A DNA stretch of 64,000 bases from Octopus vulgaris (taxonomy: Eukaryota). The stretch covers positions 14,322,001 through 14,386,000 of the forward strand of contig OX597843.1 in the NCBI GenBank assembly GCA_951406725.2. The letters are read 5' to 3'. The notes below the pieces were generated by a model. That model was not told where the DNA came from. It searched no databases and was given only the letters and a program-made list of their open reading frames with translations. A program made the position numbers and the translations under genes. Below are positions 7,616 to 50,800 of the stretch, in pieces; the stretch's first letter is position 1; each line of letters begins with the position of its first letter.

Positions 7616-7964
7616 TATATATATATACTGTGTGTAGGATTGTGTGGGTGTGAGAGAGGGAGGCTAGTCTTAAGCCGATCATACACCAAGGCTTGAGTTA
7701 CAGGGTATGTCTGTGTGTTATGTATGTCTGTGCGTACACAAACATATATACCAATGCATAGACACACATATAAGTCCTGGGGCTAAAACAACAATAACAT
7801 CAGCCTATACAGGACTTCCATGTTATGTTGGTCTATAAACATTATACATACACACACATACATATATATATATACATATATATATAAACAAGAAAACACA
7901 ACAATGCGAGGACGTGGAACACGTAGTATAATATGGACGCTCAGGATGGAAGGGAAGAAGGAGG

Positions 7965-7999
7965 GTTTAATGTTTCGAGTGGAGGTCTTCGTCGGAAAC
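7965..7999 (-). ncRNA. Minimal type I hammerhead-like motif (U4C core) in a ~190-bp dispersed element (7885-8072)
   Basis: Minus strand reads GTTT-CCGACGA-A-GACCTCCACTC-GAAAC-ATT-AAAC; second copy at 46861-46895. Confidence 0.5.
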
Positions 8000-8751
8000 A
8001 TAGGAGAAGGAAAGATCCAGAGAAGGGAAGACAGAGGGAAAAAAAATCGCCAACGGTACACACGAGGTCACATACACAAACATATGCATACATACTCATG
8101 TGTGTGTGTGTATACATACACAAACATGTCTATATATTTGTATACATATATACATTCATAAACATGTATACACACATACATCCAAATAAAAAAATATGCA
8201 TATAATATATATATCACGCACACACACATAGTGAATGACTGCACATGCAATATCAGTCTGTCTATGTAGTATGGTGATAGCTGCTACATGGCAGAAGGAC
8301 ATGTGGAGTATTGAATGTGGGAAGAAAGTTTATGTAGTGAGAGAAGGGGAGAGAGGAGCAAAAGAATCGTATCCTTTAACATGAGAGCAACTCATGTGGC
8401 ATTGAATGTGGGATGGACATGTGGTGCACATGTAGAGAGTTAGGGTATCACCTCGGTACTGTTATCAGCTGATATGTGTTGGGTGGGGAGAGGGAGGGAG
8501 AAACGGTTGTGCTGGAAGAGTCACAAAGAGTCACGGTGACTTAGTAGTGTGAGTCATGGTGTGTTTGTTGCTGTTTGGTGAAGAGGAAAGCAGAAGGATG
8601 GAGGATGAGATCTGGTTATGATGTGTGTGTGTGTGTGTGCTAATAAACCGTGTGGGAGACAGACATGGGGTAATGAAGAATGTGGAAGACAGAGAGAGAG
8701 AGAGAAATACACGGTGAGAATATCCGATTTCCTTCTATACTGTTAACAAAT

Positions 8752-9110
8752 AGGTGCAGGAGTGGCTGTGTGGTAAGTAGCTTGTTTACCAACCACATGG
8801 TTCCGGGTTCAGTCCCGCTGCGTGGCACCTTGGGCAAGTGTCTTCTGCTATAGCCTCAGGCTGACCAAAGCCTTGTGAGTGGATTTGGGAGACGGAAACT
8901 GAAAGAAGCCCGTCGTATATATGTATATATATATATGCGTGTGTGTGTTTGTCCCCCTAGCATTGCTTGACAACCGATGCTGGTGTGTTTATGTCCCCGT
9001 TACTTAGCGGTTCGGCAAAAGAGACCGATAGAATAAATAAGTCGATTTGCTCGACTAAAGGCGGTGCTCCAGCATGGCCGCAGTCAAAATGACTGAAACA
9101 AGTAAAAAGA
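8752..9110 (+). mobile_element. SINE family A
   Basis: Near-consensus copy. Confidence 0.9.
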
Positions 9111-9792
9111 AAAAGAAAGAAAAAGAAAAAGAAAGAGAAAGAAAAAGAAAAAAGAAAGAAATACCACACACACATGCGTATACATATAGCCATATAAACA
9201 GATACACATATAAATGCACATACATGTACAAGTATATACATACCTATATATACAAATACATATATATACATACCCAGACACATACAATATACGTATACAC
9301 CCAGACACACACGTATATACACATTGTCGAACATGCAAGGCTGTTGTCCTATAAAACTGTTCTGCTTTCAGAACGGTGGGACAAAAGACATCTTAAAGCC
9401 ACACACGCAGCTATCATTATCTTTTGTTTCAGTCAGTAGACACTGGCCATGCTGGGGCACCACCATGAAGAACCTTTAGTCAAAATGAATTGACCCCCCA
9501 CCCCTCAGTACGGGTTTTCTTAAAGCCTGGTACTTATTCTATCAGTCTCTTTTACCAAACTGCAAGGGATGTAAACACACCAACACTAGTTGTAGAGTGG
9601 TGTTGGAGGACAGACACAGAGAGACACACAGTTTTCATCTACCAAAATCCACTCAAAGGCTTTGGTCGGCCCAAGGTTATAGAAGACATCCAACCAAGGT
9701 GCCATGCAGAGGGACTGAACCTAGAACCATGTGGGTGGGAAGCAAACTTCTTACCACACACCCACTCTTGCACATATATATATATATATAGT

Positions 9793-10094
9793 GGAGGCGC
9801 AATGGCCCAGTGGTTAGGGCAGCAGACTCGCGGTCGTAGGATTGTGGTTTCGATTCCCAGACTGGGTGTTGTGAGTGTTTATTGAGCGAAAACACCTAAA
9901 AACTCCACGAGGCTCTGGCAGGGGATGGTGGTGATCCCTGCTGTACTCTTTCACCACTCTTTCTCCCACTCTTTCTTCTGTTGGCCTGCTCGCTTACCCA
10001 GCGGGGTGGCCTCACTTGATGGCTAAATCAATGCGAAGCGCATTGTGACCAGCGATGTGTAGCAACATCTGATAGTCTGGTCGGTCACGTGATC
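9793..10094 (+). mobile_element. tRNA-derived SINE, family B (tRNA-Arg-like head)
   Basis: GGAGGCGCAATGGCCCAGTGGTTAGGGCAGCAGACTCGCGGTC...TTCGATTCC head; 3' end CATCTGATAG.CTGGTCGGTCAC; copies at ~11830-12028(-), 15832-16080, 33420-33720, 49342-49643(-). Confidence 0.85.
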
Positions 10095-10260
10095 AATATA
10101 TATATATATATATATATGTAAACAGAGTTAGCGGTTATAGTAACCGACTAAGGGATAAGATATCCGTATATACTATCGGTATCAGTTACCTGTATTATAC
10201 CTGGGCATTGGTGTGCAGGTAACAAGAGGATAAACAAGAGTTTATCAGGAACCAATGCAA

Positions 10261-10654
10261 ATAATTAGAAAGCGGAGAAAACCACAGATTAACCAACACA
10301 TCGGTTGGACCAATTATGGGATATTTTTTTCATACAAAGCATCACATAACAAAGCAGGTGACGTAACATATCTTCTGGCCATTTTCCAGACTATTCCTCT
10401 AAGCCATGTTTTCTTTGCTTTTGTTTATATTGTCTGCTCTTGTTTTTCACTCTGATGAAGATCCGTTGCCTTAATGCCTGATGAAGATGGAGAATTTTAT
10501 CCTCACATTTATTTATAGACTGCATTTTGGCAATCTGATCAGTAACGGCCGTAATATATTTTATGTCATCACCTATTTTATGTCATGCTTTGTATTAAAA
10601 GACAAGCCATGGGGTTCAATCGAGGTTAATCTGTGGTTTTCTCCATTTTCTAAT

Positions 10655-10657
<3 letters not shown>
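10261..10657. mobile_element. Element with long imperfect terminal inverted repeats next to (TA)n
   Basis: ATAATTAGAAAGCGGAGAAAACCACAGATTAACC vs GGTTAATCTGTGGTTTTCTCCATTTTCTAATTAT, with further internal complementarity; two CTGATGAAG motifs inside. Confidence 0.65.
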
Positions 10658-10701
<44 letters not shown>

Positions 10702-12138
10702 CTTTATTACCCACAAGGGGCTAAACACAGTGGGGACAAACAAGGACAAACGGATTAAGTCGGTTACATCAACCCCAGTGCGTAACTGGTACTTAATTTA
10801 TTGACCCTGAAAGGATGAAAGGCAAAGTCAACCTCGGCGGAATTTGAACCCAGAACGTAACGGCAGACGAAATATGGCTACGCATTTCGCCCAGCATGCT
10901 AACCTTTCTGCCAGCTCGCCGCCGTCTATATATATATTGTGTGTGTGTGTGTGTGTGTGTATTTGCCACCCCCACCCCATTGCTCAACAACTGATATTGG
11001 TGTGTTTGCATCCTTGTAACTTAGTGGTTTGGCAAAAGCAACTGATAGAATAAATCTTGGGGTTGATTTGTTCAACAAAAGGTGGTGTTCCAGCATGGCC
11101 ACAGTCAAAATGACTGAAACAAATGAAAGAAAAAAAAAAAAAATCTATATATATATATATACACACACACACATACATACATACATACATACACATATGA
11201 CAAGTTTTCTTTCAGTTTCCATCTGCCAAATCCACTCACAAGGCTTTGCTTGGGCTGAGGCTATAGTAGAAGACACTTGCCCAAGGTGCCACACAGAGGG
11301 ATTGAACCTGGAACCAGGTGATTGGGAAGCTGACTTCTTACTACACAGTCATATCCGAGTACATGCTCGCGCGTGTGTGTGTGGAGGTGTGTGTGTGCAC
11401 ATGCATATATATTACACTTTCATACAATTTCCATCGACAAGGTATTGGCCAGTCCTAATCTGAAGAAAAAAAATTGCCAAAGGAGCCATGCAGTAGGATG
11501 GAACTCATAACCTTGTGATCTCCTTCGGTGATGAATGACCATGGAATTGCACCTAGAATGTTACCCTCCGAGGCACAAGTCCGGGTAAGGTTGTTTATGG
11601 AAGACCAGCAGTCACCCACGCATACCAGCCCCCTCTCTTCACGCCACTGATGTTATCCAAGGGAAAGGCAAAGGGGCCGATACAGCTTGGCACCATTGAC
11701 GTCGCAGCTCATTTATTAACGTGTAAGTGGCTGAGTACTCCACAGACACATGTACCCTTAACGTAGTTCTCGGAGAGATTCAGTGTGACACAGAATGTGA
11801 CAAGGCTGGCCCCTTTGAAATACAGGTACAAGAGAAAGAGGAAGAAAGAGGGAGAGAAAGTTGTGGCGAAAGAGTACAGCAGGGTTCACGACTACCCCCT
11901 GCTGGAACCTTGTGGAGCTTTAGGTGTTTTCGCTCAATAAACACTCACAATGCCCGGTCTGGGAATCGAAACCGTGATCCTATGACCACGAGTCCGCTGC
12001 CCTAACCACTGGGCCACTGGGCCTCCACTCATAACTACATGGTTGCAAACCTCAAACAAGAATGGAAATAGAGAAACTCAGAGCAACAACTAGGCTGAAT
12101 CTAATATTTCACTTAACTCCTCACCTCATTTGCAAATC

Positions 12139-12188
<50 letters not shown>

Positions 12189-12374
12189 GATCCTTTCTGG
12201 AGTTGCTTGACCTGCTAGAAACAGCAACCAAAATTTCAAATATGAAGACCTTGGTATACAGAAAAGAAACCAAGAAAAAAAACTGGATGGTCAGAATTAG
12301 AATGCCTTTGTTCATAGGTCAACAGGATGAGGACTAGCTCATATCCTTTATACAAAAATCTTTATACAATCATT

Positions 12375-13665
12375 TGAATTGTTAGGTATAGCAGCAAAAT
12401 CACCCTCAAATCACACCCTACTCTCTTATGTATGTATATATGTATGTATAAGCCAATGAGGGAGACCTCTACATGGTAGCTAGACATGGTAGAAATAGCA
12501 GCCAAATCTCCCTCAAATCACACCCTACAGTCTTATCTATGTATATATGTATGTATGAGCCAATGAGGGAGACCCCTACCTGGTAGCTAGACATGGTAGA
12601 AATAGCAGCCAAATCTCCCTCAAATCACACCCTACTCTCTTATGTATGTATATATGTATGAGCCAATGAGGGAGACCTCTACATGATAGCTAGACCTGGT
12701 AGAAATAGCAGCAAAATCACCCTCAAATCACACCCTACTCTCTTATGTATGTATATATGTATGTATGAGCCAATGAGGGAGACCTCTACATGGTAGCTAG
12801 GCTTCCTTGAAATAGCAGGCAAATCTCCCTCAAATCACACCTTACTCTCTTATGTATGTATATATGTATGTATGAGCCAATGAGGGAGACCCCTACCTGG
12901 TAGCTAGACATGGTAGAAATAGCAGCCAAATCACTCTCAAATCACACCCTACTCTCTTATGTATGTATATATGTATGTATGAGCCAATGAGGGAGACCTC
13001 TACATGATAGCTAGACCTGGTAGAAATAGCAGCCAAATCTCCCTCAAATCACACCCTACTCTCATGTATATATGTATGTATGAGCCAATGAGGGAGACCT
13101 CTACATGGTAGCTAGACATGGTAGAAATAGCAGCCAAATCACCCTCAAATCACACCCTACTCTCTTATGTATGTATTTATGTATGTATGAGCCAATGAGG
13201 GAGACCTCTACATGGTAGCTAGACATGGTAGAAATAGCAGCCAAATCTCCCTCAAATCACACCCTACTCTCTTATGTATGTATATATGTATGTATGAGCC
13301 AATGAGGGAGACCTCTACATGATAGCTAGACCTGGTAGAAATAGCAGCCAAATCTCCCTCAAATCACACCCTACTCTCATGTATATATGTATGTATGAGC
13401 CAATGAGGGAGACCTCTACATGGTAGCTAGATCTGGTAGAAATAGCAGCAAAATCACTCTCAAATCACACCCTACTCTCTTATGTATGTATATATGTATG
13501 TATGAGCCAATGAGGGAGACCTCTACATGGTAGCTAGACCTGGTAGAAATAGCAGCCAAATCTCCCTCAAATCACACCTTACTGTCTTATGTATGTATAT
13601 ATGTATGTATGAGTCAATTAGGGAGACTTCTACATCAGATAAAAATAGCAGCCAAATCTCTCTCA
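12375..13665 (+). repeat. Satellite array, ~12 units of 101-107 bp
   Basis: GCCAATGAGGGAGACC recurs at 12452, 12559, 12662, 12769, 12876, 12983, 13084, 13191, 13298, 13399, 13506 and degenerately at 13613. Confidence 0.95.
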
Positions 13666-14699
13666 ATTCACACATTGGTTAAAGTTGTATATGGTGAGCT
13701 GGTCATGGCTGGAATGCATTTGATTATGTCTTTACAGTCAGTTCTTACTCAGGATTAAACACAACTACCACCATCACTGCCAACAACATCCCTCCACACT
13801 CCCACATCAGAGATTCACTAATTAGGAAGTCGTTATTTATAATTAACACCTAATGAGAAGAATGTACCGATGCTAAGGAATGTAAAGCGAGGGTGGTGAA
13901 GATGGTGGTGGGGATTGTTGCAAAGGGTATGGCTGATGGTTGTGATGATGATGATGATGATGATGAGGGTATTGATGTTAAAGGTGGTGGTGGTGGTGGT
14001 AGTAGTAATGGCAGTGGTGGTAATAGTAATAATGGTGGAGGTGAAGGTGGTGGAAGTGGTTGTTGTGGCAGTGCTGTACTGTTCAGGAGAACAAGTATTT
14101 AAAATAGAACAGGGTGGGGGATTTTGTGCTCATCACCACAAGGTACTCAGCGGACTGAACATGCTAGAAATATCAAAGCATTGTACAGTCTGAAAGTGTG
14201 AGGAGGCACATTGAATAATATCTGGGTGGGCATGGTTGGACCACCTTTGATCAGAGGGTCTGCTTGCTTGGCAAGAACAAGAACATGGTGTGTCCTTGAC
14301 ACACCATGTCTGAAACAAAAAAGGGGCTGGTCATGGATGGAACACCTTTTGATCATAGGGTTGCTAGAACAAAGTTGGCCTGGGTCTATAACAACAACAC
14401 ACATTGACACAGAACCTGCTAGAAACAGCAGCCAAATCTCCCTCACCTCACACCATACAGTTTTTATTACAGGATACATGAGATCATATAGCCACCCCTT
14501 CTCCTCCTCATCATCATTAGGGGTCAAGCTTCTACTAGATGACCCTTGAGGGTCCACTTATCTCTTTCTCCCATGACTTGCTTCAGTTCTTCTCAGGGTC
14601 AGCTGTTAAGTTAACTAACATATTTCACAAGTCAGCCAATGAGATTACAATCTCACCCAGATGTCCTGACTTGGGGTCACAAATAGGTGCTTCCTTTAA

Positions 14700-14925
14700 T
14701 GAGGTGCCACTAACTTGTGCCCCATTACTCCTCCAGTAAGGTTCCACTGACCTGGACCTCCTTAACTCCTCCAGTAAGGTTCCACTGACCTGTGCCTCAT
14801 AACTCCTCCAGTAAGGCTCTACTGACCTGGACCTCCTTAACTCCTCCAGTAAAGTGCCACTAACCTGTGCCTCATAACTCCTCCAGTAAGGCTCTACTGA
14901 CCTGTGCCTGCTTCCTTCTCCAGTA
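14700..14925. repeat. Minisatellite, ~36-38-bp unit
   Basis: CTCCTCCAGTAAGG.TC.ACTGACCTG repeated about 6 times. Confidence 0.85.
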
Positions 14926-15203
14926 GGGACCAGAGAACTGAACTATTCTTTCTCTGATGGGGCACAGTAACTTTCTAAGAATTTTATTGTGTAAACTCTG
15001 CCGACAGCATGTAGTCCCAGATACGATGGTCGTAGAAGGATTTTGATCCTAAGTCTATTCAATCACAGTTGACCTGGGGCACAATATTTAAATTAATAAT
15101 GGGTCAACACTGTTTCGTTTCATTGCTACATTACGTAGTAGAGAACATGTCTACACTCTTATTAGCCAACGCTGTATGTTATGACAAACACAGACATTAC
15201 ATA

Positions 15204-15260
<57 letters not shown>

Positions 15261-15271
15261 GTATGCTGATC

Positions 15272-15620
15272 TTTGTAGGGGGAACCTATGGCAGAGGTAG
15301 ACCCAGGAAAACATGGGTCGTGGTACTGAAGTGTTATCTACAGATTTTGGTCTCAAGGAGGCGATGACAAGTGATCGAGACCCTTGGCAATTTGCTATGT
15401 TTGAGAAGACACCAAGCCAAGTGAAACCGTAGTGATGACCAGTACCCATAACACGTAAAAGGGACCCAGTACACTCTGTAGAGTGGTTGGTCTTAGGAAG
15501 GGTATCAAGTCATAGAAAATAAGCCCAAACTGGAGCCTGGTACAGCTCTCTGGCTTACAAGTTCCAGTCAAACTATCTAAACCATGCCAGCATGGAAAAT
15601 GGACACTAAATGATGATGAA
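15272..15620 (+). mobile_element. 5'-truncated RTE-clade LINE (ORF C-terminus, 3' UTR, (GAT)n tail)
   Basis: Translates GTYGRGRPRKTW..., then after a frameshift EAMTSDRDPWQ; runs into the abundant AGGAAGGG.ATC...CCATGCCAGCATGGAAAATGGAC..TAAATGATGATG repeat, identifying that repeat as the RTE 3' end (other copies ~1305-1495, 16081-16222, 17375-17545, 19552-19935, 20946-21295, 49097-49342). Confidence 0.7.
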
Positions 15621-16783
15621 TATATGTAGACATGCATGTGGTAAGTAGCTTGCTTACCAACCACATGGTTCTGGGTTCACTCCCACTGCATGGCAAGTGT
15701 CTTCTACTATAGCCTTGTGCTGACCAAAGCCTTGTAAGTGGATTTGGTAGATGGAAACTGAAAGAAGCCCATTGTGGATGTGTGTGTGTGTATGCGTATA
15801 TATATATATATATATATACATACACATATGTGGAGGCGCAATGGCCCAGTGGTTAGGGCAGTGGATTCGCGGTTGTAGGATGGCGGTTTTGATTCCCAGA
15901 CCAGGCGTTGTGAGTGTTTATTGAGCGAAAACACCTAAATCTCCACAAGGCTCCAGCAGAGGGTACTCTTTCACCACAACCTTCTCTCACTCTTTCTTCT
16001 GCTGGCCAACTTGCTTAGCCAGTGGGGTGGCGTCACTGAAGGCTAAAACAATGCAAAACGCATTGTGACCAGCGATGTGTAGGAGTGGTTGGCGTTAGGA
16101 AGGGCATCCAGCCGTAGAAACACTGCCAGATCAGACTGGGCCTGATGCAGCCTTCTGGCTTCACAGACCCCAGTGGAACCGTCCAACCCATGCTAGCATG
16201 GAAAGCAGACGCTAAATGATGATATATATATATATGTATATATGTATGTATATGTATGTCTGTCTGTGTTTGTTTCCCCACCATCGCTTGATAACCAATG
16301 TTGGTGTGTTTACGTCCCCCGTCACTTAGTGGTTCGGCAAAAGAAACTGATAAAATAAGTACTAGGCTTACAAAGAATAAGTCCTGAGGTCAATTTGTTT
16401 GACTGAAGGCAGTGCCCCAGCATGGCCGCAATTCAAACGCCAAACAAATAAAAGATACACACACACATATATACATGTCAAAAAGGGCCAAAGCATGGAA
16501 CTGTCAGCCCTCGAGTCACTTTGTAATTTCTCTTCCAATTATTAATAAAAATATACAGTTATGCTCTAAATTCTGATTTCCTGTTTGCATCAGCCAAACC
16601 CCTACATGTGTGAACGTGTCTTTATGTCATGTTAAATGTAAAAACAATTTAACATTGACCTGAAAGCTTACTCAATGCCTTTTAGCAGGATGTGCGTTTT
16701 ATTTTGGTCGAGTTGGTCTCATTCTTCTCTGAGTTTCACTTGTGGGCACACAGGGTTTTTAGGCAAGTCACAATCATCTTAAC

Positions 16784-20560: not shown

Positions 20561-21671
20561 GGGGTCTGGTGTTTATGGGGCTGAGGATCACAGTATTAGG
20601 CAGTATAGTCTGAGATACACTCAGCCACAAAAGCTTTCTGGTACAGATCTGCTTGATCAGGGCTGACCGAGGGCTAAACAACAACACCGGAGATGAAATG
20701 AAAATATGCAGATGAAAGGTGTGTACGATGACAATGACGTTAATAACGTCATCTCAGACAACAAAATTTCCAATTTAGGTACCATCGACACTCCCCTCCA
20801 CCCGAGTACTTGATTGGGGCTCTATTTTATTGACCTTGAAAGGATGAAAGGCAAAGGTGACCTTGGTTGGAATTGAGCTCAGAACAAAAAGAGCCGGAAG
20901 GAGTGCCACAAATCACTTTGACATGTCAACAATTCTGCCAGCTCACATCATCATCATCATTGTTTAACGTCCGCTTTCCATGCTAGCATGGGTTGGATAA
21001 TTTTGAGGATTGGTGAACCAGATGGCTGCACCAGGCTCCAATCTTGATCTGGCAGAGTTTCTACAGCTGGATGCCCTTCCTAATGCCAACCACTCCGAGA
21101 GTGTAGTGGGTGCTTTTACGTGCCACCAGTACGGGCGTCAGTCAGGCGGTACTGGCAACGACCTCGCTCGAATCTTTTTACACGTGCCAGTGAAGCGACG
21201 TTGGTAACGATCACGCTCGAATGGTGCCCTTTTACATGCCATGGGTATGGAAGCCAGTTGGCTGCTCTGGCAACGATCACGCTCAGATGGCTGCGATAAT
21301 GGTGATGATGATGGTGGTGGCGGTGGTAGATGTAGTAGGTGCTGGTGATAGTGGTGGTGGTGGTGATGACGGTAGTGGTGGTGGGAGCAACAGTGGTTGT
21401 CATTAATGTTAAGTCCAATCTTGTTAATACTGTGGACAAATTGGTCAAGTGCCTGTATGGAGAGGGGGAGGGAGGGGGAGGTACCCAGAGGAAGTGCCTG
21501 ATGTTTCCTGCCCACCCACCCTCAAATGTCATTCCACCCATAAAATAATATTTACTCATATCAGCAGAGCCATGCAGTGAGACTATATATAGTTGCATGA
21601 TCTGCCAGAAATAGTAGCTGAATCTCCCTCAAGTCACACCCTGTTGGGGATTTTTTGAATAAAAACACATA

Positions 21672-21833
21672 GGCATAGGACTGGCTATGTGGTAAGTTGC
21701 TTACTTACGGGCCACATAGTTCCGGGTTCAGTCCCACTGCGTGGCACCTTGGGCAAGTGTCTTCTGCTATAGCATCGGGCCGACCAAAGCCTTGTGAGTG
21801 GATTTGGTAGACGGAAACTGAAAGAAGCCCGTC

Positions 21834-21889
<56 letters not shown>

Positions 21890-26551: not shown

Positions 26552-26590
<39 letters not shown>

Positions 26591-27037: not shown

Positions 27038-27299
27038 CAGGGCTGTGGAGTCAGAGTAGGAGAGTTGAAAACAATTAAGGGTAGCTGGAGTCAGCATCTG
27101 TAAAACTATACTGACTCTGACTCACAATATCTTTATTGTTTTTAATAAACCAGTTATAACATATGGGCCCCTTCAAAGTACAAGTGTATGCATATGCTTT
27201 ATGAGATATGTAGACCAGAATCCCTTAATTACATAAAAAGGAATCAGAGGTGCCAATAGTAGGGGAGTCGGAGTTTTTTGTTTTGACTTCACAGCCCTG
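27038..27299 (+). mobile_element. hAT-type MITE, copy 1
   Basis: TIR CAGGGCTGTGGAGTC / GACTTCACAGCCCTG; flanks GATTTAAC (left) and GTTATTTC (right). Confidence 0.85.
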
Positions 27300-28158
27300 G
27301 TTATTTCTACTAGGTCTAGCTATCATGTAGAGGTCTCACTCATTGGCTCATACATACATATATACATACGTAAGAGAGTAGGGTGTGATTTGAGGGAGAT
27401 TTGGCTGCTATTTCTACCAGGTCTAGCTACCATGTAGAGGTCTCACTCATTGACTCATACATAAGAGAGTAGGGTGTGATTTGAGGGAGATTTGGCTGCT
27501 ATTTCTACCAGGTCTAGCTACCATGTAGAGGTCTCCCTCATTGACTCATACATAAGAGAGTAGGGTGTGATTTGAGGGAGATTTGGCTGCTATTTCTACC
27601 AGATCTAGCTACCATGTAGAGGTCTCACTCATTGACTCATACATAAGAGAGTAGGGTGTGATTTGAGGGAGATTTGGCTGCTATTTCTACCAGGTCTAGC
27701 TACCATGTAGAGGTCTCCCTCATTGACTCATACATAAGAGAGTAGGGTGTGATTTGAGGGAGATTTGGCTGCTATTTCTACCAGGTCTAGCTACCATGTA
27801 GAGGTCTCCCTCATTGACTCATACATAAGAGAGTAGGGTGTGATTTGAGGGAGATTTGGCTGCTATTTCTACCTGGTCTATCTACAATGTAGAGGTCTCA
27901 CGCATTGGCTCATACATAAGATAGTAGGGTGTGATTTGAGGGAGATTTGGTTGCTATTTCTACCAGGTCTAGCTGCCATGTAGAGGTCTCCCTCATTGAC
28001 TCATACATAAGAGAGTAGGGTGTGATTTGAGGGAGATTTGGCTGCTATTTCTACCAGGTCTAGCTACCATGTAGAGGTCTCCCTCATTGACTCATACATA
28101 CATATATACATACATAAGACAGTAGGGTGTGATTTGAGGGAGATTTAGCTGTTATTTC
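27300..28158 (-). repeat. Satellite array (same family as 12375-13665, opposite strand): seven 91-bp units bracketed by 107-bp units
   Basis: TTTCTAC at 27304, 27411, 27502, 27593, 27684, 27775, 27866, 27957, 28048. Confidence 0.95.
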
Positions 28159-28404
28159 CAGGGCTGTGGAGTTGGAGTCAGAAATAATAGGTAGGTGGGA
28201 GTCTGTATAGTTTTACTGACTCTGACTCACAATATCTTTATTCTTTTTAATAAACCAGTCATAACATATGGGCCCCTTCAAAGTACAAGTGTATGCATGT
28301 GCTTTATGAGATATGTAGACCAGAATCCCTTAATTACATAAAAAGGAGCCAGAGGTGCCAATAGTAGGGGAGTCGGAGATTTTTGTTTTGACTCCACAGC
28401 CCTG
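28159..28404 (+). mobile_element. hAT-type MITE, copy 2
   Basis: TIR CAGGGCTGTGGAGT / ACTCCACAGCCCTG; flanks GTTATTTC (left) and GCTTTAAC (right). Confidence 0.85.
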
Positions 28405-36940: not shown

Positions 36941-36982
<42 letters not shown>

Positions 36983-38617: not shown

Positions 38618-38658
<41 letters not shown>

Positions 38659-40680: not shown

Positions 40681-40719
<39 letters not shown>

Positions 40720-41200: not shown

Positions 41201-41285
<85 letters not shown>

Positions 41286-41376
41286 GGGAAAGTTTACGAA
41301 AATAAACAAAAGACGAAGACAGGTGGTGTACAAAACAAACAGATGTATCTGTATAACGCTCGGGAATAGAAAAAGT

Positions 41377-41412
41377 CTTTTACGTTTCAAGCCTATGCTC
41401 TTCTACAGAAAG
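41377..41412 (-). ncRNA. Minimal type I hammerhead-like motif (A6U core)
   Basis: CTTT-CTGTAGA-A-GAGC ATAG GCTT-GAAAC-GTA-AAAG on the minus strand. Confidence 0.5.
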
Positions 41413-41514
41413 GGACACAAAAAAACAAGGAGAGAAACAAGGAGAAAGAAAAAAGGAGAGAAAAAATGTGTGTAGTGGCTAACGATCATCTTTGTATATC
41501 TTCCAAGGCATAGC

Positions 41515-41879: not shown

Positions 41880-41931
41880 CTTGTGTGTAATGTTACTGAT
41901 GTATACATTATATATAAATATATAATGTATA

Positions 41932-42323
41932 TGTGGTAAGGAGCTAGTTTACCAACCACATGGTTCCGGGTTCAGTCCCACTGCGTGGCACCTTGGGCAA
42001 GTGTCTTCTACTACAGCCTCGGGCCAACCAAAGCCTTGTGAGTGGATTTGGTAGACGGAAACTGAAAGAAGCCTGTCGTATATATGTGTATATATATATA
42101 TATGTATGTGTGTGTATATGTTTGTGTCCGTGTTTGTCCCCCTAGCATTGCTTGACAACCGATGCTGGTGTGTTTATGTCCCCCGTCACTTAGCGGTTCG
42201 GCAAAAGAGACCAATAGAATAAGTACTGGGCTTACAAAGAATAAGTCCCGGGGTCGAGTTGCTCGATTAAAGGCGGTGCTCCAGCATGGCTGCAGTCAAA
42301 TGACTGAAACAAGTAAAAGAGTA
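41932..42323 (+). mobile_element. SINE family A
   Basis: Near-consensus copy. Confidence 0.9.
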
Positions 42324-42826
42324 ATACACACACACACACACACACAGACATGATAGCATGTAGTACATAGTATTACAAGCTGTGACTCCTATCCAACAGA
42401 TTTCAGACCTCATCAATCATGACCACCCCTCTTTCCTCCACCCTTTATGGCTGAAAGAGAGAGGGGGTGGGGAGAAGAGATAAAGAAGGGAAGAAAGAGT
42501 GAAAAACAAACTATATATATATATATCTTGTTTCAGTCGGTGGTCTGTGGCCATGCTGGAGTACCACCTCGAATGGTTTTTACACTAATTTTTATTTTTT
42601 TTAAAGTCTGGTACTTGTTCTATCAGTTCTCTTTTAGCAAACTGCTAAGTCACATGGACATAAATCAACACTGGTAGAGTCAAGTAGTGTGTGTGTGTGT
42701 GTGTGTGACTGGTACTTGGTCGGGTACGACAACGAGGGTTCCAGTTGATCTGGTCAACGGAACAGCCTGCTAGCAGAATGAATGGACAAGTGGCTGAACA
42801 CTCCACAGACATGCATACCCTTAACG

Positions 42827-43255
42827 CAGTGCTGGATTAACCATTAAGCAAAATAAGCACGTGCTTAGGGCATCAAGGGAAGGAGGGGGGGACCACAGAA
42901 ATGGTAAATGGTTGACAGCACAAAAGAAATCACTTTAAACTTGTTAAAATAATATTCGGGATGCCTTTATCTCTGCTGAGTATAGATGCAGATTTGTTAC
43001 CAAAGATTAATTTTAAGGATCTGATCAAAGACTTTGCAATTCCAAAAAGTAGGAGGAACCGTTTCAAATCTAAATAAAATGGAAGGAAACAAAAATTAAA
43101 CCTTATTTTCCCTTTTACTGTTTTGTTTCGTTTTGAAAGATAAAAAATTATTTCATGGTTTGTTATTTGTTTCTATTTTGAATTACAGAATCTTTTATGG
43201 GGGCACCAAAACCTTTTGAGTGCTTAGGGCCTCGATGAGTCTTAATCTGGCCCTG
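42827..43255 (+). mobile_element. Internally deleted hAT transposon retaining the transposase C-terminus
   Basis: TIR CAGTGCTGGATTAA / TTAATCTGGCCCTG; TSD CCTTAACG; 42967-43077 translates LSLLSIDADLLPKINFKDLIKDFAIPKSRRNRFKSK*, like the end of the hAT dimerisation domain. Confidence 0.8.
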
Positions 43256-43261
43256 CCTTAA

Positions 43262-43468
43262 CCCTTTCATTACCAACCCAGCTCTGGCTCTGTAATACAG
43301 ATGTCTTGCTTTCATAAGTTTTGAATTAAAATCTTGCATCAAACCTTAGTCACAATTTATGTTCCTAACACTAGCTTAATGATAAGTAATTTTTCTAAAT
43401 TCTTTGTTATATTTAAAATAATTGAAAGAAACACAGAGCATCTCAAAATAAATACAGTAACGAAAGGG
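43262..43468. mobile_element. piggyBac-type MITE
   Basis: TTAA|CCCTTTCATTAC...GTAACGAAAGGG|TTAA. Confidence 0.85.
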
Positions 43469-44683
43469 TTAATGTAGTTTTCAGTGAGATTCTGCAGGAT
43501 ACAGAATATGACAAGAGGCACCCTTTGAGATGCAGGTACGAATCGTTTTTGAAGATGAAAAGACTGGAACAAAATGAAATGAAGTGTTTTGCTCAAGGAC
43601 ACAACTCAATGCCACTGGAAATTGAACCCACAACCTTACAGTCACAAGCTGAATATCCCAAACCCTTACATACTTATAAATGATGAGCTTCCACAGAGTT
43701 TTCGTCCACTAAATTCACTGGTCTGGAGTTGCAGGAGGACAGACTTGCCTCACCCACGTACAGCTATATACGAAAACCCCAAACTCTGCGTGCCTCAGGG
43801 CAGAAAACAAACAAACACCAACAAAATATAAATCCATTTCATTTTCTTTTCCCTTTTTTATAATCTAAGCACAAAGCCTGAAACTTTTAAAGGAAGGACT
43901 GGGGGATAGTCAATTACATTGATACCAGTAATTAACTGGTACTTATTTTATCACCACCCACCCCGCTCCCAAAGAAATTTGAAGATAGAATCGTAAAGCC
44001 AGACAAAGTACTTCTAAGAGATTGGTCTGATTTTCTGCATTAAAAATAAACCCACACAGCCAATCCTTTCAACCACCACCACCTTCCTGTCGCTGGAAAC
44101 GGAAATATTCGAAGCATTTCTGACCAATGTGTTGGAAGAAGATTTCGGAAACAGAAATGGTGGGAAAGCCCATTATATATACTCATTTACTTATTTCAGC
44201 CACTGGACTGTGGCCATGCTGGAGCACCACCTTAAAGTGTTTTTAGTTAAAGAGATCAACCCCAAGACATATTCTTTGTAGCCTAGTACTTATTCTATTG
44301 ATCACTTTGGCCCAAACCACTAAGTTACAGGGATGTAAACACACCGACATCGGTTGTCAAGTGGTGATTGGGGGAAGACAAACACACACACACACACACA
44401 TGACAGTCGTATGACAGTCTTCTTACAGTTTCTGTCTATCAAATCCACTCACAAGGCTTTGGTCGGCCCGAGGCTATAGTAGAAGATTCTTGCCCAAGGT
44501 GCCACGCAGTGGGACTGAACCCAGAGCCATCCAGTTGGAAAGCAAGCTTCTTACGACACATCCACTCCTGTGCCTATACACACACACATACATATATATA
44601 TACACAGTTCTATATTTAAGAGATGAGGAATTATGTACATTATTTACAATTGATGGATATTTGTCCTCATCTTGTTTGTTGTT

Positions 44684-44729
44684 AACACAACGTTTCGGCT
44701 GGTATACCCTCCAGCCTTCATCAGGTGTC
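44684..44729 (-). ncRNA. Minimal type I hammerhead ribozyme, canonical core (Penelope-type)
   Basis: GACAC-CTGATGA-A-GGCTGG AGGGTATA CCAGCC-GAAAC-GTT-GTGTT: 5-bp stem I, 6-bp stem II, palindromic AACGTT stem III. Confidence 0.8.
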
Positions 44730-44825
44730 TTAGGGAAATTTACATATATATTCTGATTGAATCTTCATGCATTAACATGTTCTTCCCTGCGACAATGTAA
44801 ACTTTGATTTAATCAAGATACCCTC

Positions 44826-44909
44826 GGCCTGACGAGTAGCCTGCAGTATACACTTCACTTGGATATTTACCACTTCTGAAGTTCTGCTCGCTATGAAGCA
44901 TATGTAGCC
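44826..44909 (+). ncRNA. Degenerate type I hammerhead-like motif with long loop II
   Basis: GGC-CTGACGA-GTAGC...GCTAT-GAAGC-ATAT-GTA-GCC (GAAG in place of GAAA). Confidence 0.4.
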
Positions 44910-45540
44910 CAGATCTTATCTGCTGCATTCCTTAGCTCTTGTTTTCTTATTCACACACTCGGCAAACCAGGTTTCCTATGTTGAAATATAAAAAGAACTT
45001 TTTTCAGTTTATATTCTGCTAAGAAAATAATCCTTAACCTTCCATCTCAATAAACCATTATCGTTCTTGAAAATTGTTTTTTGATTTTTACTACGGATTG
45101 CTTGAAACTAACTTTCTTCCTTGGATCTTGCATACATCCATTTATTTCCATCTGTTCCTCGCTGATGAAGGAAAAGTCGGAACCAAGTTGGGGGTAACTA
45201 TATTTTAATGAATTTGTTAGCTTGCATCCCTCTTTTTGGCACGTGGTGTAATAATACAAATAAAAATATTTTATGTGGTCAGACGATTAGCGTCTATTTT
45301 TCAGCATTTTGGCAATGAAAATTTTTGGTTCTTTTTGTCCTTATTTATAATTTTGTATTGAAAATTTCACCTTTTAAGGTATTTTTCATATGCTGGCCAC
45401 TGATAAAAGGTTTTGAAATTTTATCCTTATTTTAGAAGTTTATGTGTGTGTGTATGTATATATATATGTATATACCAGAGTAAACACATAAATGTGAAAC
45501 AAGGTGGAAAAAAGAGTACTCAAATACCAGGGGTAGAGTA

Positions 45541-45648
45541 ATATGCTTTATTTAAAAGCAGCAGAGTTAACAAAAACTGTCTGACAAACGGGGGAACGTG
45601 AAACTCAGAGTAACAGGTTTTGTTGAATCTCTGCTCTTTTAAATAAAG

Positions 45649-45653
<5 letters not shown>
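45541..45653 (+). ncRNA. Long hairpin capped by a type I hammerhead-like motif (G8A)
   Basis: CTGT-CTGACAA-ACG GGGGAA CGT-GAAAC TCAGA GTA-ACAG; stem I extends about 35 bp (ATATGCTTTATTTAAAAG.. / ..CTTTTAAATAAAGTATAT). Confidence 0.6.
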
Positions 45654-45682
<29 letters not shown>

Positions 45683-46860
45683 AGTAAAATAGAGGGAACT
45701 GAAAAGTAGTTGTGCTGAGGGTGATTGATGGTGGAGTGGATGAAAGTGTTGGGGTGGGGTGGGGGTGACAAAGTTTGAGAAGTATGTGAGTGAGAGTGAG
45801 TGGTGGTGGTGGTGAGTGGACATGAGTGACAATTAGTAAATATGAGTGGTGAGTGGGGGGGGGGCTTGATGTGCCTGCAATGTTACAGAGAAAGTGAGAG
45901 AGAGAGAGAGGGAGGAGACACTTGTTTCTGTAATCCCCCCCCCCCGTTTCCTACTTCCCCCCCCCCCCCCACATACACATACACAACAACACCCAAGCAT
46001 ATACCCCACTTCACTCTTTCTCCTCTTCAAAAATGTCAACTGGGTCAGGTCAACATCTACTGGCAGAGAGCAGGGGGTGGGGGTGGATGGATGCGAGGGA
46101 TGGGACGGAACCCAACCAAGCAGCCAGTCAACCAACCAGGCAACCAGCCAGACTCCCTGTAACATGACCCCTGCCAGCAACAATAACTCCAACTACCAGT
46201 GCAAAGGAGGGACACCTCTGGAGGGGAACTGGACCTGCTAGAAACAGCAGTCAAATCTCCCTCAAATTGCACCTTACTGTTTTATCTATGTGTATACATA
46301 TAAGTCAATGAAGGCAACCTCTACATGGGAGCTAGACCTGCTAGAAATAGCAGTGAAATCTCCCTCAAATCGCTTGTGAGTGAGGATGTATGAACTATGA
46401 CCCAGAGAAGGAAACCCTTTCAAATGCCAGATGTCTTCAAAATGGTCAGATTTGTCCAGCAGATCCAGGACATCACTAATGACAGACCAAAATGAGTCAA
46501 TGGTGGAGCCATGTAGCGTCTTTCCAACCATGTGGTTCCAGGTTCCGTCCCACTGCATGGCACCTTGGGCAAGTGTCTTCTAATATAGTCCTGGAACAAC
46601 CAAAAGCTTTGTGAGTGGACTTAGTAGATGGAATCTGAAAGGAGCCTATCATATATATAAGTTACAGGAACATAAACATATCAACAGGGTATTAAATGGG
46701 GTGTGGGTACAGACACACACACAGATACATATCATCATCATCATTCAATGCCTGTCTTCCATGCTAGCATGGGTTGGACATATTTATATGTGACCTCGTG
46801 AGTACTACCGGCGATTTTTTTTCCTCTGTCTTCCCTTCTTGGGATCTTTCCTTCTCCTAT

Positions 46861-46895
46861 GTTTCCGACGAAGAGCTCCACTCGAAACATTAAAC
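46861..46895 (+). ncRNA. Minimal type I hammerhead-like motif (U4C core) in element 46790-46992
   Basis: GTTT-CCGACGA-A-GAG CTCCA CTC-GAAAC-ATT-AAAC. Confidence 0.5.
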
Positions 46896-47004
46896 CCTCC
46901 TTCTTCCCTTCTTTCCTGAGCGTCCATATTATACTATATGTGTTCCACGTCCTTGCGTTGTTGTGTTTTTTGTTTTCTTGTTTGGATTAACTATATATAT
47001 ATAT

Positions 47005-48197
47005 TGTATAATTCACTAGTTATCGTTATAGATATTTAAGATCTATCTCCCTTATAGAAATTGGCTGCCGATTCTTCGCGGGGTTTTTCTCTTCCCTTCT
47101 CTCCCCCTCTTTTTACATTGTCGTCTGTCTGGACTCCTCTCTTCCTACCACCCGCCATGGCTATGCATACTTAAGCTAGTAAACTGCCTCATTCTTGATT
47201 CCGAATTCCTTTTGCCAAGTCTGTCCGTAAACGAAGTGATCTCAAGATAAGAAATCTTTGAACTCTAATTCATCCGTATCTCTATTTATTATTATTATTT
47301 ATTAATTATTATTATTCTGATCCCCCTAGTCGCCACTCTGTTTACTATTTCAGCCTCGCCTCGTTTTTGCATATTCTGTATAATTCACTAGTTATCGTTA
47401 TAGATATTTAAGATCTATCTCCCTTATAGAAATTGGCTGCCGATTCTTCGCGGGGTTTTTCTCTTCCCTTCTCTCCCCCTCTTTTTACATTGTCGTCTGT
47501 CTGGACTCCTCTCTTCCTACCACCCGCCATGGCTATGCATACTTAAGCTAGTAAACTGCCTCATTCTTGATTCCGAATTCCTTTTGCCAAGTCTGTCCGT
47601 AAACGAAGTGATCTCAAGATAAGAAATCTTTGAACTTTAATTCATCCGTATCTCTATTTATTATTATTATTTATTAATTATTATTATTCTGATCCCCCTA
47701 GTCGCCACTCTGTTTACTATTTCAGCCTCGCCTCGTTTTTGCATATTCTGTATAATTCACTAGTTATCGTTATAGATATTTAAGATCTATCTCCCTTATA
47801 GAAATTGGCTGCCGATTCTTCGCGGGGTTTTTCTCTTCCCTTCTCTCCCCCTCTTTTTACATTGTCGTCTGTCTGGACTCCTCTCTTCCTACCACCCGCC
47901 ATGGCTATGCATACTTAAGCTAGTAAACTGCCTCATTCTTGATTCCGAATTCCTTTTGCCAAGTCTGTCCGTAAACGAAGTGATCTCAAGATAAGAAATC
48001 TTTGAACTCTAATTCATCCGTATCTCTATTTATTATTATTATTTATTAATTATTATTATTCTGATCCCCCTAGTCGCCACTCTGTTTACTATTTCAGCCT
48101 CGCCTCGTTTTTGCATATTCTGTATAATTCACTAGTTATCGTTATAGATATTTAAGATCTATCTCCCTTATAGAAATTGGCTGCCGATTCTTCGCGG
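47005..48197. repeat. Tandem array, 372-bp unit, 3.2 near-identical copies
   Basis: TGTATAATTCACTAG at 47005, 47377, 47749, 48121. Confidence 0.95.
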
Positions 48198-48274
48198 CGC
48201 GCCAGCCCTACCCACCCCCACCACCAATACCGGATATCTCTATTTTGCTCCAACTATACCGGATGTCGTTTTCT

Positions 48275-49096
48275 CCCACCACCATTATAGGTGTCTACTC
48301 TTTGAACCCCCTCTTCAATACGCTATTTCACCATGCATTACCCCTCTCTCGATATCCTACGTTCTACTTGCCTAGAACCTGTCCTCTGGACCACCCCTCC
48401 CACTGGTGCTCACCCCTCCCACTGGTGCTCCCCTATATTTCTGCATCCCCCCACCACCATTATAGGTGTCTACTCTTTGAACCCCCCTCTTCAATACGCT
48501 ATTTCACCATGCATTACCCCTCTCTCGATATCCTACGTTCTACTTGCCTAGAACCTGTCCTCTGAACCACCCCTCCCACTGGTGCTCCCCTATATTTCTG
48601 CACCCCCCCACCACCATTATAGGTGTCTACTCTTTGAACCCCCTCTTCAATACGCTATTCACCATGCATTACCCCTCTCTCGATATCCTACGTTCTACTT
48701 GCCTAGAACCTGTCCTCTGAACCACCCCTCCCACTGGTGCCCACCCCTCCCACTGGTGCTCCCCTATATTTCTGCACCCCCCACCACCATTATAGGTGTC
48801 TACTCTTTGAACCCCCTCTTCAATACGCTATTTCACCATGCATTACCCCTCTCTCGATATCCTACGTTCTACTTGCCTAGAACCTGTCCCCTGAACCACC
48901 CCTCCCACTGGTGCTCCCCTATATTTCTGCACCCCCCACCACCATTATAGGTGTCTACTCTTTGAACCCCCCTCTTCAATACGCTATTTCACCATGCATT
49001 ACCCCTCTCTCGATATCCTACGTTCTACTTGACTAGTACCTGTCCTCTGAACCACCCCTCCCACTGGTGCTCCCCTATATTTCTGCACCCCCCCCA
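48275..49096. repeat. Tandem array, 5 units of 155-175 bp
   Basis: ACCATTATAGGTG at 48281, 48456, 48613, 48786, 48941. Confidence 0.95.
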
Positions 49097-50527
49097 TAAA
49101 AAGCACCATCCGAACGTGGCCGATGCCAGACCCCTCTGGCACCTGTGCAGGTGGCACGTAAAAAACACCCACTACACTCGCGGAGTGGTTGGCGTTAGGA
49201 AGGGCATCCAGCTGTAGAAACACTGCCAGACTAGACTGGAGCCTGGGGCAGTCCCGAGCTCCCCAGACCCCGGTCGAAACCGTCCAACCCGTGCTAGCGC
49301 GGAAAATGGACGTTAAACGATGATGATGATGATGATGATGATCACCGTGATCGACCAGGCCATCAGATGTTGCTACACATCGCTGGTCACAATGCGCTTC
49401 GCATTGTTTTAGCCTTCAAATGATGCCACCCCGCTGGCTAAGCGAGCAGGCCAACAGAAGAAAGAGTGAGAGAAAGAGTGGTGAAAGAGAACAGCAGGGA
49501 TTGCCACCACCCCCTGCCGGAGCCTCGTGGAGCTTTTAGGTGTTTTTGCTCAATAAACACTCACAACGACTGGTCTGGGAATCGAAACCGCAATCCTACG
49601 ACCACGAGTCCGCTGCCTTAACCAATGGGCCATTGCATCTCCACACACACACACATATATATATATGAAAAAGGGATAAGTACTAGAGCTGATTTGTTTG
49701 ACTAAAATCCTTCAAGGTGTGACCCCCAGCAATGTTTTTTAAAGCCTGGTACTTGTTCTATTGGACTCTTTTGCTGAACCGCTAAGTTACAGGAACATAA
49801 ATATACAAACAGGGTATTAAATGGGGTGTGGGTACAGACACACACACAGATACATATCGTCATCATCATTCAATGCCCATCTTCCATGCAAGCATGGGTT
49901 GGACATATTTATATAGACACACACAATTCCAGTTTCTGTCTACCAAATTCACATGCACATGGTACCAGTTGGCCCAGGGCTATAATAGTTTCATGCAGTG
50001 GAACTGAACCCAGAACCATGTGGTTGGGAAGCATACTTCTTACCACACAGCCACCTCTGTGCCTATATATATTTATATATATATTCTTTTACTTGACTGT
50101 GGCTATGCTGGAGCACCACCATAAGGGTTTTTTTTAGCTCAGCAAATTGACCCCAGGGCTAATTCTTTGTAAGCCTAGTACTTATTCTATCAATTTCTTT
50201 TGCCGAACTGCTAGGTTACAGGAATGTAAACATATATAGGTGCAGGAGTGGCTGTGTGGTAAGTAGCTTGCTTACCAACTACATGGTTCTGGGTTCAGTT
50301 CCACTGCGTGGCACCTTGGGCAAGTGTCTTCTACTATAGCCTCGGGCCGACCAAAGCCTTGTGAGTGGATTTGGTAGACGGAAACTGAAAGAAGCCCGTC
50401 GTATATATGTGTATATATATATATATATAACGGGAAGCTTTATGAAAATAGACAAAAGACGAAGGCAGGTGGAAAACAAACAAACAATTGTATTAGTATG
50501 GCGCTCAGGAAATATAAATGAAACAAG

Positions 50528-50565
50528 TCTTTAACGTTTCGAGCCTACGCTCTTCGACAGAAAGA
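50528..50565 (-). ncRNA. Minimal type I hammerhead-like motif (A6U core) in an element inserted in the (TA)n of a SINE A
   Basis: TCTTT-CTGTCGA-A-GAGC GTAG GCTC-GAAAC-GTT-AAAGA. Confidence 0.55.
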
Positions 50566-50800
50566 TACACAGAGAGAAAAAAAACACAGAAAGAAGGAGA
50601 GAAAAAAAATGCGTGCAGTAGCTAACGAATCAACATGGCGATCTGATTTCGGCCAGAGGTCAAAGATCAAACATGAGACGCGAGAGCGAAATAAGGGGAG
50701 ATAATAGGGTTGATAATAGGGTTGATAATAGGGTTGAAGGACCAGCTAATAGTGCGTAGGAGGGGTCTGGACGTGTGTATGTATAGGGTTGGTGTATGTA

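What the first reader, a model, noticed from the sequence alone, without database searches (positions are those of the whole stretch)
7885..50640. A ~190-bp (TA)n-embedded element family with recurrent non-canonical hammerhead cores (U4C and A6U)
Seen: four dispersed copies (7885-8072, ~41285-41490, 46790-46992, ~50430-50640) share a pyrimidine-rich leader, a hammerhead-shaped motif and a downstream CC(T/C)GAGCG segment, all beside (TA)n tracts. Stem I, a short stem II and GAAAC are kept. Two copies read CCGACGA and two read CTGT(A/C)GA instead of CUGANGA, so each change recurs within a subfamily and is not single-copy decay. Established: minimal type I hammerheads occur in Penelope-like retroelements and can act as dimers via palindromic stem III. 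Inference: non-autonomous Penelope-dependent elements that spread with a variant or attenuated ribozyme.
Basis: partly seen in the sequence, partly recalled or inferred. Interest (0 to 1): 0.7.

Follow-up and report, generated by a model that had tools for sequence, protein, structure and literature searches.

The report
Penelope-type repeats with altered hammerhead cores
The four copies belong to two related families of ~200-base repeats that carry a hammerhead-ribozyme-shaped motif with one changed core letter; in the one family tested the change is the family norm in four organisms, so these are likely Penelope-retroelement derivatives that would have spread with a ribozyme predicted to cut poorly or not at all.

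Summary
The four copies are real but form two families, not one: A (7887-8074, 46787-46991; 91% alike; core CCGACGA, U4C) and B (41285-41485, 50430-50628; 76-82% alike; core CTGTNGA, A6U). A and B share only the motif, a T/C-rich leader and CCYGAGCG. All other features fit the minimal type I hammerhead of Penelope-like elements (PLEs), and the 3' ends lie 82-103 nt past the cut site at microsatellites.
For A, copy-level decay is refuted. Among 17,095 contigs laid from four organisms, no other letter reached 10% of depth at any core position. The majority has a 4-bp stem II and the ACGT palindrome, which both window copies have lost. B could not be tested beyond the window; there, its two copies differ mostly at free positions.
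No cleavage data and no link to an autonomous PLE were obtained. Most likely these are short PLE terminal-repeat derivatives copied from uncut RNA, with an attenuated or silent ribozyme. U4C is already known from a viroid and U3-A8 from PLEs. I did not find A6U in the papers read, but the key paper (Lünse et al.) was unavailable. New variant of a known kind; moderate interest.

The parts
7887..8074 (-). Family A copy c1 (decayed; stem II 2 bp; 3' end at a TA tract)
7965..7999 (-). Hammerhead-shaped motif of c1: stem I GTTT/AAAC, core CCGACGA (7995-7989, U4C), extra A, GAAA, helix III insert CA, H17=U at 7969
7938..7945 (-). CCTGAGCG segment of c1
46787..46991 (+). Family A copy c3 (minor 3' subfamily; followed by a TA tract)
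46861..46895 (+). Hammerhead-shaped motif of c3: core CCGACGA 46865-46871 (C4 at 46866 is the family letter); this copy has A at 46880 and 46889 where the family majority reads G; H17=U at 46891
46915..46922 (+). CCTGAGCG segment of c3
41285..41485 (-). Family B copy c2 (3' end at (CA)n 41242-41282, then (TA)n 41208-41242)
41377..41412 (-). Hammerhead-shaped motif of c2: stem I CTTT/AAAG, core CTGTAGA (41408-41402, A6U), stem II 4 bp with one G-U, palindrome ACGT, H17=A at 41381
41357..41364 (-). CCCGAGCG segment of c2
50430..50628 (-). Family B copy c4 (3' end at (TA)n 50402-50429)
50528..50565 (-). Hammerhead-shaped motif of c4: stem I TCTTT/AAAGA, core CTGTCGA (50560-50554, A6U), stem II GAGC/GCTC, palindrome ACGT, H17=U at 50533
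50502..50509 (-). CCTGAGCG segment of c4

Best explanation
These are two families of ~200-nt dispersed repeats that carry a minimal type I hammerhead motif with one changed core letter (U4C, the family norm in A; A6U in both B copies), and they are likely short derivatives of Penelope-like-element (PLE) terminal repeats whose ribozyme is predicted to cut weakly or not at all. Inferred mechanism: a PLE RT-endonuclease supplied in trans nicks AT-rich or microsatellite DNA. It starts reverse transcription about 80-100 nt 3' of the motif and copies uncut RNA through the motif to a defined 5' boundary about 75 nt upstream of the core. Cleavage is not needed for this, so a core change in a master copy could be fixed and amplified. 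The rest of the motif (stems, G8, G12, palindrome) has been kept, probably as inherited or protein-recognised structure. Shown: the sequence anatomy, the family-wide C4 in A, copies spanning the cut site. Inferred: PLE origin, mobilisation in trans, low cleavage.
For: laid contigs of four runs (organisms A, B, D, E; 9311, 5649, 1976 and 159 laid, >=80% alike) on c3. No row appears for 46865-46871 at the 10% cut, while depth is at or near its maximum there in all four runs. Nearby differences were detected: 46880 A>G in 81, 81, 94, 93% of depth and 46889 A>G in 88, 89, 95, 55%. These give a 4-bp stem II and the ACGT palindrome. Depth does not drop across the cut site in three of four runs (46885-92 vs 46893-900: 3.04M vs 3.30M in X1), so copies hold both sides. 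In organism E the motif (46861-46884, ~135,000) is covered far more than the leader (<400) or tail (<9,000), and 46895 C>T (73%) keeps a G-U pair in stem I. Loose ends show the leader starting after TA-rich letters (2 of the 24 rows shown). B copies: motif 33 of 38 alike against 111 of 170 in flanks (Fisher p=0.011, post hoc); the 5 differences fall at N7, H17, loop II, the outermost stem I flank and a G-C to G-U pair. H17-to-3'-end distance is 82, 100, ~96 and 103 nt. In the anole PLE PAc, RT starts 111-118 nt into the ORF and the cut is 26 nt in, i.e. 85-92 nt apart by my subtraction; its hammerhead mutants still insert, and uncut RNA is the main template (PMC11167929). Core mutants have low activity (PMC9901934); A6C gave <0.1/min and U4C is much reduced in vitro (PMC3088659). 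Folding of the natural A copies puts GAAAC in a competing hairpin (pair probability 0.55-1.0) and stem I at 0.00; stem I is <=0.02 in the B copies.
Against: No autonomous partner was found: no PLE ORF or RT/GIY-YIG motif in the window, four protein searches gave nothing related, and the 3' ends of Naiad_Obim and Naiad_Ovul do not match by eye. No RNA evidence. B was not tested outside the window. Contig depth is weighted to abundant young copies, is no copy number, and 'no row' means only that no other letter reached 10%. The organism E pattern rests on 159 contigs and may partly reflect the 80% cut. Covariation is not above shuffles. A canonical-core copy in the same window (44724) also spans its cut site and has stem I at only 0.22, so neither feature singles out the variant families. 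Keeping C3-G8, G12 and the palindrome is also what a still-active ribozyme would show.
Confidence: 0.6

Rival explanations
1. The motifs are working variant ribozymes that cleave slowly as dimers or with help from the PLE protein, and selection for cleavage keeps the rest of the motif.
For: C3-G8, G5, A9, G12-A14, A15.1-U16.1, stem II and the palindrome are the family majority in A and intact in c4. U4C supports viroid infectivity (PMC3088659). The PAc hammerhead cleaves only with protein. The motif is better kept than its flanks.
Against: Single changes in the CUGA turn give low activity, with no rescue by a second change (PMC9901934). PLE minimal hammerheads are weak even when canonical. The copies here are solo; no tandem joints were listed (contigs show presence only). 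Competing fold in A.
Confidence: 0.2
2. Pure hitchhiking: the motif is dead and has no role; it looks conserved because few master copies founded each burst and because the search is anchored on the motif.
For: The best explanation needs no cleavage either. Covariation is not significant. The Fisher tests are post hoc on two copies each, with indel-prone low-complexity flanks. Naiads amplify without a canonical hammerhead (PMC8557442).
Against: Organism E keeps the motif and CYGAGCG while its leader and tail diverge. A and B keep pairing with one two-sided change in stem I. B differences sit at free positions.
Confidence: 0.12
3. In family A the motif overlaps the start of the partner's ORF (ATG at 46859, as PAc's ORF starts inside its hammerhead), and coding constraint fixed C4.
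For: An ATG sits in stem I and the frame is open through the motif in both A copies. No other letter reached 10% at 46859-46861. PAc precedent.
Against: T/C-rich DNA is poor in stop codons. A search of longer proteins with this frame found 0 of 32 candidates at E<=0.01 (weak evidence). B has no such ATG.
Confidence: 0.04
4. The copies decayed from a canonical-core consensus, or the resemblance to a hammerhead is chance.
For: Both A copies carry decay-type changes elsewhere in the motif (46880, 46889). Rfam listed no hammerhead among the 150 rows shown of 165.
Against: T at 46866 is under 10% in 4 of 4 runs. U4C creates a CpG rather than removing one (sequence). Two B copies 76-82% alike share U6. 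Strict descriptor 4 vs 0 in shuffles. Rfam also did not list the canonical motif at 44724.
Confidence: 0.04

Closest known systems
Minimal type I hammerheads (min-HHRs) of metazoan Penelope-like elements (Cervera and De la Pena 2014, PMC4209133)
   Same: U-rich leader, 4-5 bp stem I, extra nt after A9, G10.1-C11.1, GAAA, 2-nt palindromic helix III (ACGU), H17 often U, mostly dispersed single motifs.
   Different: C at 4 (family A) or U at 6 (family B). All 44 alignment rows seen in their supplement have U4 and A6 (their descriptor demanded the core, and part 1 of the file was not read). Their reported core variant is U3-A8. No PLE ORF is linked here.
PAc (Poseidon) hammerhead of Anolis (Frangieh et al. 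2024, PMC11167929)
   Same: Motif about 85-92 nt upstream of the RT start, AT-rich targets, insertion from uncut RNA.
   Different: PAc is autonomous, and its hammerhead cleaves with protein help. Here the units are ~200 nt, with no coding region found and a changed core.
Natural core variants U4C (viroid) and A6C (phage Bcep176) (Perreault et al. 2011, PMC3088659)
   Same: Same positions changed; U4C identical.
   Different: Those are single replicons. Here U4C is the norm of an abundant animal repeat family; A6U is not among the variants named in the section and passages read (Figure 5 itself not seen).
Non-LTR retrozymes (bioRxiv 10.64898/2026.07.22.740005; PMC7229834 listing only)
   Same: Short non-coding PLE-derived units with a type I hammerhead; solo monomers exist.
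   Different: Retrozymes are defined by tandem units with complete hammerheads; these four copies are solo with altered cores.
Naiad PLEs (Craig et al. 2021, PMC8557442)
   Same: (TA)n preference; amplification without a canonical hammerhead; present in Octopus.
   Different: The 3' ends of Naiad_Obim and Naiad_Ovul do not resemble A or B, and three motif strings scored 0 in the supplement.

Membership tests
PLE minimal type I hammerhead | Core C3 U4 G5 A6 N7 G8 A9 | tested here: not met
   U4C in A (family norm); A6U in both B copies. The other core positions are canonical.
PLE minimal type I hammerhead | G12 A13 A14 A15.1, U16.1, H17 | tested here: met
   4 of 4 copies; no other letter >=10% at these places in A.
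PLE minimal type I hammerhead | Extra nucleotide after A9 and G10.1-C11.1 pair | tested here: met
   Extra A in 4 of 4; G-C in 3, G-U in 1.
PLE minimal type I hammerhead | Stems I and II | tested here: met
   Stem I 16 of 16 cells, stem II 13 of 16; the A majority has a 4-bp stem II. Predicted folding does not favour stem I.
PLE minimal type I hammerhead | Palindromic helix III for dimer formation | tested here: met
   ACGT in both B copies and in 55-95% of family A depth; broken in both A window copies.
PLE minimal type I hammerhead | Covariation in stems | tested here: inconclusive
   One two-sided change (G-C vs C-G) between A and B; 82 of 500 shuffles as high; one-sided G-U changes.
PLE minimal type I hammerhead | Self-cleavage 3' of H17 | not testable with these tools
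   No raw RNA reads were offered; needs a bench assay.
Penelope-like element derivative | Link to a PLE RT + GIY-YIG ORF | tested here: inconclusive
   None in the window; protein searches blank; no genome held.
Penelope-like element derivative | 3' end about 85-100 nt past the motif at AT-rich or microsatellite DNA | tested here: met
   82-103 nt; 3 of 4 at a TA tract, 1 at (CA)n; 5.3% of the window lies within 20 nt of (TA)4.
Penelope-like element derivative | Partial tandems or inverted pLTR arrangement | tested here: inconclusive
   Not seen in the 4 copies; no joints listed in short contigs.
Non-LTR retrozyme | Tandem units each with a complete hammerhead | tested here: not met
   Solo copies, altered cores; arrays elsewhere in the genome are not excluded.
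Naiad | Sequence match to described octopus Naiad 3' ends | tested here: not met
   By eye and by motif strings only.

The most novel reading that the evidence does not exclude
Families A and B are natural catalytically silenced hammerheads that selection keeps as the structure by which a Penelope RT-endonuclease recognises its template. Two sister lineages would have lost cleavage by different core changes (U4C, A6U) and spread better for it, separating the motif's structural role from its chemistry. The shared CCYGAGCG, which can pair with the 3' strand of stem II (probability about 0.3 in both B copies, 0 in the decayed A copies), might be part of that element.
Probability: 0.25. Interest if true: 0.7.

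Novelty: new variant of a known kind. Interest (0 to 1): 0.45.

Why it matters
What the hammerhead does in Penelope-like elements is open: it is nearly universal in canonical clades, yet weak in vitro and dispensable for insertion in the one reconstituted system (PMC11167929, PMC8557442). An abundant family that fixed a core change predicted to impair cleavage, while keeping stems and palindrome in four organisms, is a natural test of cleavage against structure. A canonical-core family lies in the same window as a control. Descriptor searches that demand CUGANGA miss such families, so 'no hammerhead' calls for some PLEs may hide variant cores. The interest is capped because core variants in PLE hammerheads are already in print, activity is untested, and family B rests on two copies.

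Tried and rejected
No whole genome is held, so no subfamily consensuses or copy counts were made. Rfam: no hammerhead among the 150 of 165 rows shown; top hits are microsatellite-driven miRNA models. Protein-level read-out of the core failed: two near-length searches (0 and 1 candidates, none significant), one longer-length search (0 of 32), and a phmmer over 1.84 billion proteins that gave one hit, a tandem-repeat protein matching outside the motif, rejected. Degenerate motif scans: viral contigs 0; metagenome contigs 3, rejected because the flanks are unlike A or B and stem I is absent by eye; genome contigs 1 (a Bacteroides MAG, not inspected). No RNA holder on record was listed; this says nothing about expression. 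Reads were laid on family A, so B was not tested. Depth beyond 46959 was masked by the tool, and 232 of 256 loose-end rows were not shown. Naiad identity was rejected. ARAGORN found no tRNA. Earlier-findings look-ups by sequence, by place and by one word set were empty. Lünse, Weinberg and Breaker (PMC5785218), the most likely prior report of PLE hammerhead variants, is not held; only its title was seen. Claims that A6U is not in print rest on searches and are weak.
Full report
Observation. The four copies are present. They sort into two families. Family A is c1 (7887-8074, minus) and c3 (46787-46991, plus), 91% alike. Family B is c2 (41285-41485, minus) and c4 (50430-50628, minus), 76% by blastn and 82% by global alignment. 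No A-B blastn hit appears at E<=1, although all 4 cross-family global scores exceed 200 shuffles. Shared by all four are a T/C-rich leader, the motif, and CCYGAGCG 19-26 nt past H17, which occurs 4 times in the window against 0.59 expected. A hammerhead descriptor with one core mismatch allowed found 6 loci against a mean of 0.3 in 30 shuffles, and 4 against 0 in its strict PLE form. It caught c2, c3, c4 and two further hammerhead-type motifs, missed c1, and gave one locus (7502) that I take as chance. Rfam listed no hammerhead in the 150 of 165 rows shown.

Anatomy. Family A reads GTTT, CCGACGA, an extra A, stem II, GAAA, C-A, U16.1, H17=U, AAAC. Family B reads CTTT, CTGT(A/C)GA, an extra A, GAGC-loop-GCT(C/T), GAAA, C-G, U16.1, H17=A or U, AAAG. 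Stem I pairs in 16 of 16 cells and stem II in 13 of 16. One stem I pair is G-C in A and C-G in B, but with four sequences this is not above shuffles (82 of 500). Both A copies have lost the ACGT palindrome and one stem II pair. The 3' ends lie 82, 100, about 96 and 103 nt past H17, three at TA tracts and one at (CA)n. Each pair of copies also shares its 5' start. No PLE ORF or RT/GIY-YIG motif lies in the window. The abundant SINE-like repeat of the window (families D6, D8) looks like an octopus SINE from memory; that is recalled and unverified.

Family-wide test. No genome is held, so I laid public contigs of four runs, labelled organisms A, B, D and E, on c3 at 80% likeness. 9311, 5649, 1976 and 159 contigs were laid. 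Ten positions showed another letter in at least 10% of depth in some run; none lies in 46865-46871, where depth is at or near its maximum. C4 is therefore the family letter in 4 of 4 runs. Two motif positions where c3 has A read G in most depth: 46880 (81, 81, 94, 93%) and 46889 (88, 89, 95, 55%). So the majority has a 4-bp stem II and the palindrome, and the window copies are worn members of a minor 3' subfamily (depth falls about 100-fold after 46926, where 183, 106 and 48 contigs go on with another tail). In organism E depth is about 135,000 over 46861-46884, under 400 over the leader and under 9,000 past 46893; 46895 C>T (73%) keeps a G-U pair, and a loose end still shows CCGAGCG. Depth is level across the cut site in the other three runs. 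No joints and no pile-ups of ends were listed. Limits: depth is weighted to abundant copies and is no copy number; contigs show presence only; 24 of 256 loose-end rows were shown; 46959-47000 was masked.

Family B was not tested outside the window. Within it, the two copies agree at 33 of 38 motif positions against 111 of 170 in the flanks (p=0.011, post hoc). The five differences fall at N7, H17, loop II, the outermost flank of stem I and a G-C to G-U pair. Sharing U6 at this divergence points to a common ancestor with U6 (inference).

How it most likely works. Cervera and De la Pena (PMC4209133; main text parts 1-2 of 4 and supplement file 2 part 2 read) describe this architecture in PLE terminal repeats, mostly as dispersed single motifs, weakly active and only as dimers or with an extended helix III. 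Frangieh et al. (PMC11167929; passages and section 3 part 2) show that a PLE protein nicks AT-rich DNA and starts reverse transcription 111-118 nt into the ORF, 85-92 nt past the cut site by my subtraction. They also show that hammerhead mutants still insert, that uncut RNA is the main template, and that cleavage needs the protein. The units here fit that geometry and span the cut site. I infer copying in trans from uncut RNA, with a master-copy core change fixed because cleavage is dispensable. That the change impairs cleavage is predicted from mutagenesis: low activity for changes in the CUGA turn (PMC9901934, passages); A6C under 0.1/min, and U4C much reduced in vitro yet enough for viroid infectivity (PMC3088659, section 8 and passages). 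Folding of the natural copies gives stem I a probability of 0.02 or less, and in A a competing hairpin takes GAAAC. Against over-reading this: the canonical motif at 44724 has stem I at only 0.22 and also spans its cut site, and the A copies folded are not the majority form.

Rivals. An active, protein-assisted or dimeric variant (0.2) is favoured by the retention of every other catalytic position and by the viroid precedent; it is more plausible for A than for B. Pure hitchhiking (0.12) is favoured by the thin covariation and by Naiads, which amplify without a canonical hammerhead (PMC8557442; passages, section 6 and supplement searches). Coding constraint from an ATG at 46859 (0.04) found no protein support. 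Decay or chance (0.04) is refuted for A.

Comparison and novelty. It works like, and descends most likely from, the PLE minimal hammerhead, but fails the canonical-core test, and membership among PLE derivatives lacks the ORF link. It is not a retrozyme by the tandem criterion (bioRxiv 10.64898/2026.07.22.740005; part 1 of 5 and passages) and does not match the described octopus Naiad ends. All 44 rows seen in the 2014 alignment have U4 and A6, but that search required them. U3-A8 in PLEs and U4C in a viroid are in print. I did not find A6U, or any cephalopod hammerhead survey. Two cephalopod repeat papers were checked: PMC13282606 (part 1 of 3 and supplement) gives PLEs as 6.83% of the O. vulgaris genome in 190 families, with no 'hammerhead' in its supplement; PMC8967140 has 0 occurrences of 'hammerhead'. 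Lünse et al. (PMC5785218) could not be read; a review passage on it was seen (PMC6765202). Unchecked earlier notes of this scan report other PLE core variants, one with C4, which suggests such variants recur. Verdict: real; new variant of a known kind; interest 0.45.

Noticed in passing
window 44603-44760, minus; core at 44724: A third family with a canonical PLE-type minimal hammerhead (CTGATGA, extra A, 6-bp stem II, ACGT, 5-bp stem I), ending 86 nt past H17 at a TA tract. A natural control.
   Followed up: partly
window 45480-45650, plus; core at 45581: A fourth hammerhead-type motif (CTGACAA, G8A in this copy) with a longer helix III, lying between TA tracts and inside a long predicted hairpin.
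   Followed up: partly
window 47005-48197 and 48275-49093: A 372-bp unit repeated 3.2 times (99% match) starts right after c3's TA tract, followed by a 156/174-bp tandem array.
   Followed up: no
window ~53777-57400 and ~57464-61000: A near-identical duplication with ~3.69-kb spacing (53777-54076 = 57464-57763 at 100%); recent tandem duplication or assembly artefact.
   Followed up: no
window 12320-13780 and 27274-28210: Tandem arrays of 107-bp and 91-bp period that match each other in inverted orientation (162 nt, 94-96%).
   Followed up: no
window, e.g. 8750-8963, 21669-21882, 50236-50449: An abundant SINE-like repeat with an internal microsatellite; recalled as an octopus SINE, not verified; ARAGORN finds no tRNA. 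c4 sits inside one copy's TA tract.
   Followed up: no
runs X1 and X3 laid on window 46817: Loose ends show a family A form with a different 5' leader, also preceded by TA-rich letters (15 and 25 contigs, agreement under 0.5).
   Followed up: no
window 46859-46861, plus: An ATG lies in stem I of both A copies with an open frame through the motif; no protein relative found.
   Followed up: partly
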